Below, one piece after another: positions 5,433-47,938 of a stretch of 64,000 nt of DNA (position 1 is its first letter; each line of letters starts with the position of its first letter). Both the position numbers and the translations under genes were made by a program. The stretch spans positions 60,676-124,675 of the forward strand of contig JALWUQ010000054.1 of the NCBI GenBank assembly GCA_026993075.1, written 5' to 3'. Under the pieces are notes generated by a model, which worked only from the letters and a program-made list of their open reading frames with translations, did not search any database and was not told the origin of the DNA. Source of the DNA: Campylobacteraceae bacterium (GTDB lineage: Bacteria > Campylobacterota > Campylobacteria > Campylobacterales > JALSKU01).

Positions 5433-5581
5433 TTAATAACTCCAATTTAAAAATTAATGAGACACTACACGATATAAACACTCATAATTATAATGATACC
5501 TTATTACTTTTTAAAAGTCAAGTAAACCAGTAGAGATAGTAATATTTATTTTTTCAATGACCTTATAATTGAGATAATTAA

Positions 5582-5932
5582 CAGGTGTAGCGATAAGCCG
5601 GATTTTGTCATTGGATGATTATTCATCTACATCTTTACTTTACAGTAAGATTTTAGCGAAGAGTATCAATATGAGACTAAACCATCTCTTCTTGCTACAG
5701 GTTGGGTTTACATAGCAACTTAAGTTACCTTAAGTTCTGGTGGTCTCTTACACCGCCGTTTCACCGTAACCTGCCCACACTTTTATAGCATGAACTGGCT
5801 GTTTGCTTTCTGTTGCACTATCCCTAAGATTACTCCTGTCGTCTGTTAGACGAAACCTTGTCTCATAATAGCCCGGACTTTCCTCTTGCCCATACTTTTA
5901 GAGTATACACAAGCAATCATCTGCTACACCTA
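5582..5932 (-). ncRNA. rnpB: RNase P RNA, bacterial type A
   Basis: The minus strand contains GAGGAAAGTCCGGGCT, GTGCAACAGAAAGCAAACAGCC, GGTGAAACGGCGGTGTAAGAGACCACC and the 3' block AGATGAATAATCATCCAATGACAAAATCCGGCTTATCGCTACACCT. P1 pairs AGGTGTAGC with GCTACACCT. Confidence 0.93.
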
Positions 5933-20013: not shown

Positions 20014-20090
20014 GGGTTCATAGCTCAGTTGGTTAGAGCTCTCGGCTCATAACCGAGCGGTCCTAGGTTCGAGTCCTAGTGAACCCACCA
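20014..20090 (+). tRNA. tRNA with anticodon CAT (elongator Met, or Ile2 if lysidine-modified); not an initiator
   Basis: Cloverleaf drawn by hand: acceptor GGGTTCA/TGAACCC, D arm GCTC-AGTTGGTTA-GAGC, anticodon arm CTCGG-CTCATAA-CCGAG, T arm CTAGG-TTCGAGT-CCTAG, encoded CCA. A 1-72 G-C pair and only two G-C pairs at the base of the anticodon stem argue against tRNA-fMet. Confidence 0.9.
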
Positions 20091-43461: not shown

Positions 43462-45946
<2,485 letters not shown>

Positions 45947-46000
45947 TAGTATAAAATTTGGTAATTGAATTATACTCTACTATACTTAAATATTTATTAT

Positions 46001-46124
46001 TAACTAACCTTACGCACTATAATGAGCAAAGCTCTCTATAGTGGCAGAAACGCAAAGTCCCTACAACTCCTTGAAGCTTACGAAAAGTAGGACTTTTCGA
46101 GAAAAAAATGCGTAAGATTAGTTA
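46001..46124. repeat. inverted-repeat-bounded structured element, copy A (124 nt)
   Basis: The arms are TAACTAACCTTACGCA and TGCGTAAGATTAGTTA. Internal features are TATAAT at 46018-46023 and a 10-bp hairpin at 46054-46096. It is about 94% identical to copy B. Confidence 0.8.
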
Positions 46125-46343
46125 TTATTTCAGTGAACCACTACACACCTAAAGAGATGGCCGGATGTCACCGCGATTGGTGGCTAGTTTGAGCGTTATA
46201 TACAATATTGTAGCAAATAGACTGAATGTTTATTTGTATAATATATTGACTTCATAATAGTGTTATATTATAATATGACTGAAATTACAAATATTTCCAA
46301 TTCATCAAAAAGATTGTGATAAATTTTAATTATTTTATTGTAT

Positions 46344-46467
46344 TAACTGGTCTTACGCACTATAATGAGCAAAGCTCTCTATTGTGGCAGAAGCTCAAAG
46401 TCCCTACAACTCCTTGAAGCTTACGAAAAGTAGGACTTTTCGAGAAAAAAGTGCGTAAGATCAGTTA
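46344..46467. repeat. inverted-repeat-bounded structured element, copy B (124 nt)
   Basis: The arms are TAACTGGTCTTACGCAC and GTGCGTAAGATCAGTTA. It has the same orientation and the same internal hairpin (46397-46439) as copy A, with 8 mismatches in 124. Confidence 0.8.
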
Positions 46468-46503
46468 GCTGACTGACATATAAAAATAATATTTTATTAT
46501 AAA

Positions 46504-46771
46504 ATCTGACCTTACGCATTAAACACATATCTGAGCAAAAAGAGAAAGTGTCATATGCGAGGCAGATTTTTAAAAGCTTAGCCAAAGCTAAGGTAAAAAA
46601 ATCTAACGAAGTCAGATGATACTTTATCTTTTTGCCCGAAGGGTGGTATAATTTGCTCACAATTGCGTCGTTAGTAAGATTTGAAGCTACTAGTAGCTCC
46701 TGCATCTTACTGCCTATCACTTGAGAGTAACTTATACCACTCAGATATGTGTTTAATGCGTAAGGTCAGAT
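46504..46771. repeat. inverted-repeat-bounded structured element, copy C (268 nt, perfect 32-bp arms)
   Basis: ATCTGACCTTACGCATTAAACACATATCTGAG (46504-46535) is the exact reverse complement of 46740-46771. It shares the core CTTACGCA and the blocks TGAGCAAA, GGCAGA and AAGCTTA with A and B. It contains TGGTATAAT at 46644-46652. Confidence 0.8.
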
Positions 46772-46807
46772 AAAATTTTGTAAAATATTAAAAAGGAGTA
46801 AAATGCC

Positions 46808-47938
46808 ATGTTATCTTTTAAAGAAAGAGCTATCTCATTACTGAAAAAAGCCGATGTTAAAATAAATGGAGACAGGCCTTGGGATATTCAAGTATATAAT
46901 GACAAGCTATATGAACGCACTTTGCTTGGTGGTACTATCGCTTTTGGAGAAGCATATATGGATGGATGGTGGAGTGCAGAAAAACTGGATCAATTTTTTG
47001 CGAAAATTTTGGGTGCTTACTTAGACGAAGAGCTGAAATCCCCTATTTTATTATTTTATTATCTTAAATCTGCCTTGTTTAATCCGCAAACAGAGAAAAA
47101 AGCATTCAAAGTCGGAGAAGTACATTATGATATTGGTAATGATTTATATTCAAAAATGCTTGATAAAAGGATGGTTTATACCTGTGGATACTGGGATGGC
47201 TTTCAAGATATTCCACCAGCATCCAATCTCGATGAAGCTCAAGAAAATAAATTGGAAATAATATGCAGGAAAATAGGACTTAAAAAAGGTGACAATGTTT
47301 TAGATATAGGCTGTGGCTGGGGAAGTTTCATAAGATATGCGGCAGAAAAGTATCAAGCAAACTGTGTAGGAATTTCTGTATCTAAAAAACAAGTTGATTA
47401 TGGAAATAAATCAAAAGGTGATTTGTCAATAGAATATAGATTGCAAGATTACAGAGATATTGATGAAAAGTTTGATCATATTGTATCTGTTGGAATGTTT
47501 GAACATGTTGGATATAAAAATTATAAAACTTATATGGAAGTTGTCAATAAAAATCTCAAAGATGATGGTCTTTTTTTGCTACATACCATAGGATGCAATA
47601 TTAGCACAACTGCAACAGATCCGTGGATAAATAAATATATTTTTCCAAATTCAATGCTCCCTTCTGCTGCACAAATTTCAAAATCTGTTGAAAATTTATT
47701 TGTTATTGAGGATTGGCATAATTTTGGGATAAACTATGATCATACCTTGATGTCTTGGTATAATAATTTCAAAAAATATTGGCCTGATATAAAAGGTCAT
47801 TATAATGAGAGATTTTATAAAATGTGGGAATTTTATCTTTTATCATCAGCTGCAACATTTCGTATAAGAAGAAACCAGGTTTGGCAAATAGTTTTATCAA
47901 AGCACGGCATAAAAGACGGATACAAAAGGATTGTATAA
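46808..47938 (+). CDS. cfa: cyclopropane-fatty-acyl-phospholipid synthase
   Basis: 376 aa. SAM motif VLDIGCGWG and HYDIGNDLY are present, with a typical CFA synthase C-terminus. SD AAGGAGT lies at 46793-46799. Confidence 0.92.
   Translation: MLSFKERAISLLKKADVKINGDRPWDIQVYNDKLYERTLLGGTIAFGEAYMDGWWSAEKLDQFFAKILGAYLDEELKSPILLFYYLKSALFNPQTEKKAFKVGEVHYDIGNDLYSKMLDKRMVYTCGYWDGFQDIPPASNLDEAQENKLEIICRKIGLKKGDNVLDIGCGWGSFIRYAAEKYQANCVGISVSKKQVDYGNKSKGDLSIEYRLQDYRDIDEKFDHIVSVGMFEHVGYKNYKTYMEVVNKNLKDDGLFLLHTIGCNISTTATDPWINKYIFPNSMLPSAAQISKSVENLFVIEDWHNFGINYDHTLMSWYNNFKKYWPDIKGHYNERFYKMWEFYLLSSAATFRIRRNQVWQIVLSKHGIKDGYKRIV

What the first reader, a model, noticed from the sequence alone, without database searches (positions are those of the whole stretch)
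46001..46771. Three homologous inverted-repeat-bounded elements with a shared CTTACGCA/TGCGTAAG stem core fill the thiC-cfa intergenic gap
The 850-bp non-coding gap between divergent thiC (with its TPP riboswitch) and cfa holds three related elements. A (46001-46124) and B (46344-46467) are both 124 nt, in the same orientation, with 8 mismatches by my alignment. C (46504-46771) is 268 nt. Each is closed by a terminal inverted repeat built around the same core. In A the arms TAACTAACCTTACGCA/TGCGTAAGATTAGTTA pair at 15 of 16 positions. In B the arms TAACTGGTCTTACGCAC/GTGCGTAAGATCAGTTA give 16 Watson-Crick pairs plus one G-T. In C the arms are a perfect 32 bp. Where the copies differ inside the stem, they differ on both arms. 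Stem position 6 is A-T in A but G-C in B. The base preceding CTTACGCA is T-A in B, C-G in C and a C/A mismatch in A. That pattern suggests selection for pairing rather than only shared descent. C also shares colinear internal blocks with A and B (TGAGCAAA, GGCAGA, AAGCTTA), so it is a diverged longer homologue, not an unrelated palindrome. I cannot place these in any RNA family or IS terminus I know. No transposase, reverse transcriptase, integrase or cas gene occurs in the window. Candidate explanations are a lineage-specific MITE family (Correia-like, carrying promoters), a family of structured ncRNAs, or a modular cis-regulatory leader for cfa.
Basis: seen in the sequence. Interest (0 to 1): 0.75.

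Follow-up and report, generated by a model that had tools for sequence, protein, structure and literature searches.

The report
Three MITEs upstream of cfa
The three hairpin-bounded repeats between thiC and cfa are small non-coding transposons (MITEs) that carry the ends of a very widespread IS701/ISAba11-type insertion sequence, so they are ordinary mobile DNA and not a new RNA or regulatory system.

Summary
The repeats are real. A (46004-46121) and B (46347-46464) are 94% identical. C (46506-46769) shares only its ends with them. All six arms are copies of one 13-bp terminal inverted repeat, CTSACCTTACGCA. A and C are flanked by 7-bp direct target-site duplications (TTATTAA/TTATTAT and ATAAAAT/ATAAAAT).

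A scan of reference genomes found more than 117 similar 100-130-bp elements in at least ten phyla. In 55 of 118 the 7-bp flanking duplication is perfect (consensus TTANTAA), against 1.8 expected. Homologues of the whole A/B element, mostly with their own duplications, lie at unrelated sites in other Campylobacterota genomes.

The same 13-bp ends and 7-bp duplications bound 1.1-1.3-kb insertion sequences. These encode a DDE transposase that NCBIfam classes as IS701 family, and one record annotates as ISAba11 group. One of them, on a Polaromonas plasmid, has exactly C's ends.

Two relatives with the same thiC-cfa-valS gene order have a 236-310-bp gap with no such element. The window's gap is 950 bp.

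I found no Rfam hit and no covariation beyond chance, and no transposase of this family in the window. Verdict: a MITE cluster, a new member of a known kind, of low to moderate interest.

The parts
45997..46003 (.). Left 7-bp target-site duplication of element A (TTATTAA)
   Evidence: It matches the right copy TTATTAT at 6 of 7 positions and fits the family target consensus TTANTAA.
46004..46121 (+). MITE A, 118 bp. Left TIR is CTAACCTTACGCA (46004-46016). Right TIR is TGCGTAAGATTAG (46109-46121). The interior holds three short hairpins.
   Evidence: Full-length homologues occur in seven loci from other Campylobacterota MAGs.
46122..46128 (.). Right 7-bp target-site duplication of A (TTATTAT)
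46347..46464 (+). MITE B, 118 bp, 94% identical to A. TIRs are CTGGTCTTACGCA (46347-46359) and TGCGTAAGATCAG (46452-46464). It has no matching flanking duplication (GTATTAA at 46340-46346, TTAGCTG at 46465-46471).
   Evidence: The right TIR is identical to that of the metagenomic insertion sequence L290.
46499..46505 (.). Left 7-bp target-site duplication of C (ATAAAAT)
   Evidence: It matches the right copy at 7 of 7 positions.
46506..46769 (.). MITE C, 264 bp. It has perfect TIRs, CTGACCTTACGCA (46506-46518) and TGCGTAAGGTCAG (46757-46769). The interior holds two ~100-nt hairpins (46535-46635 and 46643-46740).
   Evidence: The TIR is identical to that of the Polaromonas plasmid insertion sequence L332 and of metagenomic L285. 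Hairpin 1 is homologous to a palindrome without TIRs in L327.
46770..46776 (.). Right 7-bp target-site duplication of C (ATAAAAT), 31 bp upstream of the cfa start codon
46644..46652 (+). Extended -10-like motif TGGTATAAT inside C, facing cfa. It is a candidate promoter supplied by the element; this is inference only.
   Evidence: Read directly from the sequence. Not tested.
46246..46274 (+). Near-consensus sigma-70-type promoter match (TTGACT, 17-nt spacer, TATAAT) in the A-B spacer, pointing towards B, C and cfa
   Evidence: 11 of 12 positions. It is not part of any MITE and its function is untested.
45850..45942 (-). TPP riboswitch of thiC (context)
   Evidence: 68.8 bits, E = 7.9e-13.
46808..47938 (+). 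cfa, cyclopropane-fatty-acyl-phospholipid synthase (context)
   Evidence: PF02353 CMAS.

Best explanation
[quoted passage not shown] They are non-coding DNA transposons that keep only the 13-bp terminal inverted repeats (consensus CTSACCTTACGCA) of an insertion-sequence clade in the IS701 family, ISAba11 group.

Proposed mechanism:
- A DDE transposase of that clade, encoded elsewhere, binds the two inverted ends and cuts the element out.
- It inserts the element into an AT-rich target (consensus TTANTAA) with cuts staggered by 7 bp.
- Repair of the stagger produces the 7-bp direct duplication on each side.

Three such insertions, C being the most recent-looking, have expanded the thiC-cfa gap from about 240-310 bp to 950 bp. 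C now sits 31 bp from the cfa start codon.

Shown here: the ends, the duplications, the dispersed copies, the autonomous partners with identical ends, and the absence of the elements from syntenic relatives.

Inferred: mobilisation in trans, the cut-and-paste chemistry (by analogy with IS4-family Tn5/Tn10), and any effect on thiC or cfa expression.
For: 1. All six arms are one 13-mer, found nowhere else in the window.
2. C has a 7/7 flanking duplication and A a 6/7 one.
In 55 of 118 elements the 7-bp flanking repeat is perfect, against 1.8 expected after shuffling partners. The repeat has sharp edges at exactly 7 bp and a consensus of TTANTAA.
4. Seven full-length A/B-type homologues lie in other Campylobacterota MAGs at unrelated sites. 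Five of them have 7- or 8-bp duplications.
5. Autonomous elements carry the same ends and duplications:
   - P. salmonis plasmid L245: TTATTAA|CTCACCTTACGCA ... 353-aa ORF ... TGCGTAAGGTGAG|TTATTAA.
   - Polaromonas L332: CTGACCTTACGCA with TTACTAA on both sides.
   - Acinetobacter L333 and Polaromonas L334: CTGATGTTACGCA with 7/7 duplications.
   - About 45 of 80 metagenomic transposase loci have both ends 1113-1279 bp apart.
6. The transposase scores 325 bits against NCBIfam NF049921, IS701 family (cut-off 250). It also matches Pfam DDE_5 and DDE_Tnp_1. Among the invariant columns of the 12-sequence alignment are D74, D75, D171, E280 and a Y-x2-R-x3-E-x6-K pattern, which I read as the DDE and YREK catalytic motifs. 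A GenBank record annotates a 48%-identical relative as 'group ISAba11 transposase'.
7. Relatives L328 and L329 have the same thiC-cfa-valS-mlaA order. Their gaps are 310 and 236 bp, and the core motif is absent from 8 kb of each.
Against: - No transposase of this family lies in the 64-kb window or in any of the MITE loci, so current mobility in this organism is unproven.
- B has no target-site duplication.
- The syntenic relatives are only 77-78% identical in Cfa, so there is no exact empty-site allele showing a single ATAAAAT.
- The interiors of A/B are not derived from the ends of any insertion sequence I recovered.
- The interior hairpins are well conserved among copies, which leaves some room for a secondary function.
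Confidence: 0.9

Rival explanations
1. The elements are a family of structured non-coding RNAs, or a modular cis-regulatory leader for cfa. The terminal stem would be maintained by selection for RNA pairing.
For: - The folds are far more stable than shuffled sequence. z-scores are -5.2 to -6.9 for A and B (-4.3 for the minus strand of B) and -13.8 for C.
- Three interior hairpins are conserved among nine A/B-type copies, with a few both-side changes.
- A near-consensus promoter at 46246-46274 points into B and C.
Against: - Both strands fold about equally well, as expected for a DNA palindrome.
- No Rfam family matches, even at E <= 10.
- The RNAalifold covariation term is +0.19. Only 3 of 36 pairs have a double change, each in a single sequence, and there are comparable numbers of broken pairs.
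- The 'stem' is identical to the ends of transposase-encoding insertion sequences and is flanked by 7-bp target duplications.
- Copies sit at unrelated loci.
- Relatives with the same thiC-cfa arrangement lack the elements.
Confidence: 0.04
2. A and B are integron attC recombination sites (a cassette array without an integrase), read as TAAC ... GTTA ends with R''-L''/L'-R' boxes.
For: - A and B, with their flanks, begin with TAAC and end with GTTA.
- They are about 124 nt long, like Vibrio-type attC sites (the attC length is from my own knowledge).
- The spacing AAC-5 nt-8 nt resembles the R''/L'' layout.
Against: - The AAC/GTT bases belong to the duplicated target, not to the element.
- C lacks them.
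- The stems have no extrahelical bases.
- Flanking 7-bp direct repeats are not a feature of attC.
- The same ends bound DDE-transposase insertion sequences.
- I saw no integron integrase; the loci were screened only with the IS transposase.
Confidence: 0.01
3. The elements are REP/BIME-like palindromes spread by a RAYT (Y1 HUH) enzyme, or simple local duplications of a chance palindrome.
For: - The palindromic units lie clustered in one intergenic region.
- B looks like a copy of A together with part of its left flank.
Against: - REP elements do not make target-site duplications (from my own knowledge), whereas this family does in 55 of 118 cases.
- The ends match DDE insertion sequences.
- The 13-mer arms are far above chance.
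Confidence: 0.02

Closest known systems
ISAba11 and the ISAba11 group of the IS701 family (Acinetobacter; classed as IS701 family in PMC7326120 and PMC9771954)
   Same: - The transposase of the partner elements is homologous. Identity is 39-51% to the Moraxella and Acinetobacter plasmid copies, and NCBIfam gives IS701 family.
- Size is about 1.1 kb.
- The 13-bp ends share the pattern CT-A--TTACGCA (CTGATGTTACGCA in A. schindleri).
- 7-bp duplications occur in AT-rich targets.
   Different: - The window holds only non-coding derivatives of 118-264 bp, with no transposase.
- Their ends are the CTSACC variant, not CTGATG.
- The partner transposases keep a full Y-R-E-K motif. ISAba11 was described with an HHEK motif and a 5-bp or absent direct repeat; that description is from my memory of Rieck et al. 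2012, which I could not read here.
IS4 family, subgroup ISPepr1 (De Palmenaer et al. 2008, PMC2266710)
   Same: 5'-CT ends, 7-8-bp direct repeats, a preference for AT-rich targets, and a complete YREK motif (compared). The end consensus YT-AA-YTT---A matches CTCACCTTACGCA at 6 of its 8 specified positions.
   Different: - ISPepr1 elements are 1500-1600 bp; these are 1100-1280 bp.
- NCBIfam IS4 models score far below their cut-offs (77 bits against 250), whereas the IS701_2 model passes.
Correia elements (CREE/NEMIS) of Neisseria
   Same: Both are 100-160-bp intergenic MITEs closed by inverted repeats. Both can fold into hairpins and may carry promoter-like sequences next to genes. This is a resemblance of kind.
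   Different: From my own knowledge, Correia elements have 26-bp inverted repeats, duplicate a TA dinucleotide and are confined to Neisseria. Here the repeats are 13 bp, the duplication is 7 bp and the family spans many phyla. There is no sequence similarity.
MITEAba12 of Acinetobacter (PMC6382973)
   Same: A bacterial MITE of about 110 bp that is thought to be mobilised in trans by an insertion-sequence transposase.
   Different: It is a different IS family with a different duplication length (from my own knowledge). That paper came up in the literature searches, but I did not read it. None of the searches turned up a MITE attributed to the ISAba11 group.

Membership tests
MITE (non-autonomous DNA transposon) | Terminal inverted repeats at both ends | tested here: met
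   All three elements have 13-bp TIRs. They differ from CTSACCTTACGCA at 0 positions in C and at 1-2 positions in A and B.
MITE (non-autonomous DNA transposon) | Direct target-site duplication of fixed length flanking the element | tested here: met
   C 7/7 and A 6/7. Across the family, 55 of 118 are perfect against 1.8 expected, with sharp 7-bp edges. B has none.
MITE (non-autonomous DNA transposon) | No transposase coding capacity; small size | tested here: met
   The elements are 118, 118 and 264 bp. tblastn with the partner transposase finds nothing in the window. The only ORF, 46421-46720 on the minus strand, runs across the palindromes.
MITE (non-autonomous DNA transposon) | Multiple dispersed copies in a genome | tested here: inconclusive
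   Two copies each on different contigs of MAGs WFMT01 (L205, L241) and CAZLXQ01 (L165, L180), and up to 8 loci in one Thiomargarita MAG. The source genome beyond this 64-kb window could not be scanned.
MITE (non-autonomous DNA transposon) | Ends shared with an autonomous transposase-encoding element | tested here: met
   L245, L332, L285 and about 45 metagenomic insertion sequences carry the same 13-bp ends.
MITE (non-autonomous DNA transposon) | Presence/absence polymorphism at orthologous sites | tested here: inconclusive
   The syntenic gaps in L328 and L329 lack the elements, but these are different species (77-78% Cfa identity). Four other samples of the same species show the same arrangement.
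IS701 family / ISAba11 group (partner element) | Transposase matches the family profile above its curated cut-off | tested here: met
   NF049921 transpos_IS701_2 scores 325.5 bits against a cut-off of 250, for the P. salmonis element. This applies to the partner, not to anything in the window.
IS701 family / ISAba11 group (partner element) | 4-bp direct repeat and incomplete YREK motif, as defined for IS701 by De Palmenaer et al. 2008 | tested here: not met
   7-bp duplications, and Y273-R276-E280-K287 invariant, compared with the table in PMC2266710. The clade fits the newer NCBIfam and ISfinder-style grouping but not the 2008 definition.
IS4 family, subgroup ISPepr1 | Ends YT-AA-YTT---A, direct repeat 7-8 bp, YREK, length 1500-1600 bp | tested here: inconclusive
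   The ends match at 6 of 8 specified positions, and the direct repeat and YREK criteria are met. The length criterion is not met (1.1-1.28 kb), and the IS4 profiles fall below their cut-offs.
Integron attC site | R''(RYYYAAC)/R'(GTTRRRY) boxes, extrahelical bases, association with an integron integrase | tested here: not met
   The AAC/GTT bases lie in the duplicated target, and C lacks them. The stems have no bulged bases. I saw no integrase. No attC covariance model was available.
Any Rfam RNA family | Covariance-model match | tested here: not met
   Only the TPP riboswitch matches in 45000-47500 at E <= 10. The three other hits are weak, none scoring above about half its gathering cut-off. 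The scan of the whole window at gathering thresholds finds RNase P, one tRNA and TPP.
Correia element (Neisseria MITE) | 26-bp TIR, TA duplication, Neisseria host | tested here: not met
   13-bp TIR and 7-bp duplication. The Correia features are from my own knowledge.

The most novel reading that the evidence does not exclude
This may be an undescribed and unusually widespread MITE superfamily of the ISAba11-type IS701 clade.
- A 13-bp end and a 7-bp TTANTAA target are conserved across at least ten phyla.
- The interiors are lineage-specific hairpins, some of which also exist on their own without the ends (C hairpin 1, L327).
- New copies tend to land beside old ones, because each insertion regenerates its own target.

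In this organism, element C may have replaced or displaced the native cfa promoter, so that membrane cyclopropanation is now driven from inside a transposon.
Probability: 0.3. Interest if true: 0.4.

Novelty: new member of a known kind. Interest (0 to 1): 0.27.

Why it matters
The finding explains a conspicuous 'structured' intergenic region as mobile DNA, and so removes a false lead for a new RNA class.

It gives a simple signature for masking or annotating this MITE family in Campylobacterota, Chloroflexota, Ignavibacteria, Thiomargarita and other genomes: CTSACCTTACGCA ... TGCGTAAGGTSAG, flanked by a 7-bp repeat. These elements break short-read assemblies (contigs L002-L007 end inside them), and gene callers place spurious ORFs on them.

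It also flags a possible transposon-derived promoter 31-165 bp upstream of cfa, and an insertion at about the -35 position of the thiC promoter. Both are testable cases of MITE-driven regulatory change.

Tried and rejected
- Rfam at permissive thresholds found nothing but the TPP riboswitch.
- I considered integron attC sites because of the TAAC...GTTA ends. I rejected the idea once the flanks proved to be 7-bp target duplications.
- A broad palindrome pattern scanned against viral contigs returned 120 rows, none with the family's 13-bp end, so I take them as chance matches.
- Literature searches with the end sequence as a text string returned only unrelated primers. The Thiomargarita MITE paper describes different elements, with a 10-bp direct repeat and a 19-bp inverted repeat.
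- I looked for an autonomous copy among the 117 genome loci, using long-range end pairs and clustering of ORFs. This found only MITEs of 332-463 bp and housekeeping genes.
- A metagenome scan for the A/B-type right end gave 0 hits.
- blastn of the whole region against plasmids gave nothing.
- A third protein search, with the L285 transposase, aimed to find a Campylobacterota host. It returned no organism names.
- A search for orthologous empty sites among the Campylobacterota MITE loci found no overlapping flanks.
- I tested A against C for interior homology and found only chance-level similarity.
- The A-B spacer has no tRNA and no homologue.
- Rieck et al. 2012 on ISAba11 could not be read.

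Full report
**Observation.**
- A (46001-46124) and B (46344-46467) are 124-nt direct repeats with 8 mismatches. Each is closed by a 16-18-bp inverted repeat.
- C (46504-46771) has perfect 32-nt arms and two internal hairpins of about 100 nt each.
- The 8-mer CTTACGCA and its complement occur in the 64-kb window only at these six arms.
- The 13-mer CTSACCTTACGCA, allowing up to two mismatches, matches only these six places, against 0.78 expected by chance.
- The gap between thiC (43989-45857, minus strand) and cfa (46808-47938, plus strand) is 950 bp, not 850 bp.
- The TPP riboswitch lies at 45850-45942 on the minus strand.
- Rfam gives nothing else in the region, even at E <= 10.

**Source organism.** Contigs from one MAG (GCA_027023835.1) and from several metagenomes are 99.97-100% identical to the window. 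Many of them end inside the repeats, which is typical of repeat-induced assembly breaks. The nearest named Cfa homologue, at 70% identity, is from a Sulfurospirillaceae MAG. The full-length relatives of A/B come from Campylobacteraceae and Sulfurospirillum MAGs. The host is therefore a member of the Campylobacterota.

**What the elements are.** I scanned one genome per GTDB species for CTTACGCA, a gap of 75-105 nt, then TGCGTAAGNNNAGNTA. By record title, the hits come from Chloroflexota (many Anaerolineae), Ignavibacteria and other Bacteroidota, Thiomargarita, Campylobacterota, Chlamydiota, Cyanobacteriota, Poribacteria, Spirochaetota, Desulfobacterota, Patescibacteria, Omnitrophota and Armatimonadota. 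Several genomes hold multiple copies.

Aligning the flanks gives the consensus TTANTAA | CTCAC CTTACGCA ... TGCGTAAG GTGAG | TTANTAA. The seven bases outside the 13-bp inverted repeat are a direct repeat:
- 55 of 118 elements have a perfect 7/7 match, against 1.8 expected when left and right flanks are re-paired at random.
- The match rate falls from about 70-80% to about 17% exactly at the two edges of the 7-mer.

That pattern is the signature of transposition with a 7-bp staggered cut.

In the window:
- C has ATAAAAT on both sides (7/7).
- A has TTATTAA and TTATTAT (6/7).
- B has no duplication.

The elements proper are therefore 46004-46121, 46347-46464 and 46506-46769.

Seven elements homologous to A/B over their whole length lie in other Campylobacterota MAGs at unrelated sites. 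Five of them have their own 7- or 8-bp duplications. Several loci show two MITEs separated by exactly one shared 7-mer (L167, L173, L191 and L226). This fits an element that recreates its own preferred target on insertion, and it may help to explain the clustering seen here.

**The autonomous partner.** None of the 117 loci encoded a transposase. A 33-nt probe made of right end + TTATTAA + left end hit 42 Piscirickettsia salmonis plasmids.
- In pPSEM90-5, a 1148-bp element reads TTATTAA | CTCACCTTACGCA ... 353-aa ORF ... TGCGTAAGGTGAG | TTATTAA.
- The ORF scores 325 bits against NCBIfam NF049921, IS701 family transposase (cut-off 250). It also matches Pfam DDE_5 and DDE_Tnp_1.
- It has more than 7,400 relatives at E <= 1e-10, mostly on metagenome contigs of 1.1-1.5 kb.
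- Among the invariant columns of a 12-sequence alignment are D74, D75, D171, E280 and a Y-x2-R-x3-E-x6-K pattern, which I read as the DDE and YREK catalytic motifs.
- Of 80 metagenomic loci encoding relatives only 49-64% identical, about 45 have both 13-bp ends 1113-1279 bp apart. Others have one end at a contig edge. One (L285) has the Campylobacterota variant CTGACC/GGTCAG, and one (L290) has B's right arm.
- On complete plasmids, a Polaromonas element has exactly C's ends with TTACTAA on both sides. Acinetobacter schindleri and P. naphthalenivorans elements have CTGATGTTACGCA with perfect 7-bp duplications. A Cyanobacterium relative is annotated 'group ISAba11 transposase'.

The family is thus the ISAba11-type branch of IS701. 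Both reviews that mention ISAba11 class it as IS701 family, and they cite its insertions arising in laboratory selections in Acinetobacter (PMC7326120 and PMC9771954).

Under the 2008 criteria of De Palmenaer et al. (PMC2266710), the clade's 7-bp repeat, CT ends, AT-rich targets and full YREK motif look more like the IS4 subgroup ISPepr1 than like IS701 as then defined. Its length and profile scores do not fit ISPepr1. I therefore report the NCBIfam assignment and note the discrepancy.

**Absence from relatives.** Two relatives (Cfa 77-78% identical) keep the order PEMT ... thiC / cfa-valS-mlaA. Their thiC-cfa gaps are 310 and 236 bp, and the core motif is absent from 8 kb of each. The riboswitch region aligns well. 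Removing A, B, C and one copy of each duplication leaves about 420 bp in the window. These relatives are different species, so this is not a strict empty-site allele.

**The RNA hypothesis.**
- The folds are very stable, but about equally so on both strands.
- In nine A/B-type copies (92% mean column identity), RNAalifold gives a covariation term of +0.19. Only 3 of 36 pairs show a double change, each in a single sequence.
The 'compensated' states are singletons and are matched by uncompensated ones.
- Variation on both ends together also occurs in the autonomous elements (CTCAC/GTGAG, CTGAC/GTCAG, CTGAT/ATCAG). This is what co-evolution of a transposase with its two binding sites predicts.
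- The interior similarity between A and C is at chance level.
- C's first hairpin is homologous to a palindrome in L327 that has no such ends. The interior of C is therefore cargo, or a nested repeat.

**Mechanism and consequences (inferred).** A transposase of this clade, supplied in trans, would bind the 13-bp ends and insert the element at TTANTAA-like sites with a 7-bp stagger. The cut-and-paste chemistry is assumed by analogy with IS4-family enzymes.
- C, with perfect ends and a perfect duplication, looks recent.
- A, with 1-2 end mismatches and a 6/7 duplication, looks older.
- B may be a rearranged copy or a local duplicate of A. Its left flank resembles A's.

No transposase of this family lies in the window. 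C ends 38 bp, and its duplication 31 bp, before the cfa ATG, so the native promoter must lie within or upstream of C. A TGGTATAAT extended -10 motif inside C (46644-46652, plus strand) and a near-consensus TTGACT-17-TATAAT match at 46246-46274 are candidate promoters. A sits roughly where the -35 region of the thiC promoter would be. None of this is tested.

**Verdict.** This is a cluster of three MITEs derived from a known IS family: a new member of a known kind. I found no description of MITEs of this clade, and the cross-phylum conservation of a 13-bp end is notable. As a finding in this window, however, it is ordinary mobile DNA.

Noticed in passing
window 46129-46339: The spacer between A and B is absent from the syntenic relatives. 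It contains a segment richer in G+C (about 46150-46195) and a near-consensus TTGACT-17-TATAAT promoter match (46246-46274, plus strand). It has no tRNA, no Rfam hit and no homologue in any fetched locus.
   Followed up: partly
window 46535-46635; L327:1866-1944: Hairpin 1 inside C is about 75% identical (E = 4e-9) to an intergenic palindrome in a related Campylobacterota contig that has no IS-type ends. The stem shows what look like compensatory differences, so it may be a separate hairpin repeat family.
   Followed up: partly
L167:669-1141, L173:1957-1989, L191:864-896, L226:2826-2858: Pairs of MITEs lie head to tail, separated by exactly one shared 7-bp target copy. This suggests repeated insertion into the duplicated target of an earlier copy.
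   Followed up: partly
L029:39-140, L039:13846-13947, L068:5675-5776, L075:1281-1382 (viral contigs): Four viral contigs carry related ~125-nt elements of the form TAAC ... CCTTACGCAATGGGGGG ... CCCCCACTGCGTAAGG ... GTTA. They share the inner 9 bases of the IS end but not the outer 5. Their nature is unknown.
   Followed up: no
L129-L244 (e.g. L147, L148, L175, L181, L199, L221): The interiors of many Anaerolineae MITEs are variants of one long palindrome (GTCATTCTGAGCGAAGCGAAGAATCTC ... and its complement). Other lineages use other hairpins. The element interiors are lineage-specific, while the 13-bp ends are constant.
   Followed up: no
window 46421-46720 (minus strand); L002:1-225: A 99-aa ORF runs through B and C, and a 75-aa gene was called on it in a public metagenome assembly. 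It is almost certainly a spurious call on palindromic DNA.
   Followed up: partly
L245:1605-1835: The P. salmonis plasmid carries a second, truncated copy of the insertion sequence (left end plus the first 53 codons), next to an ISPsa2 (IS6-like) element.
   Followed up: no
L143, L188, L192 (CAMBFS01, titled Klebsiella pneumoniae MAG): Three MITE copies with a non-palindromic interior lie in a MAG labelled Klebsiella pneumoniae. This host seems unlikely for the family, so the contigs may be mis-binned.
   Followed up: no
L180:7034-7151, L204:2056-2172: Two Campylobacterota copies are flanked by 8-bp rather than 7-bp direct repeats (TTAAAGAA and TTATTTAA).
   Followed up: partly
window 5578-5932 (minus strand) and 20014-20087 (plus strand): Bacterial RNase P class A RNA and one tRNA gene, found by the Rfam scan of the whole window.
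   Followed up: no
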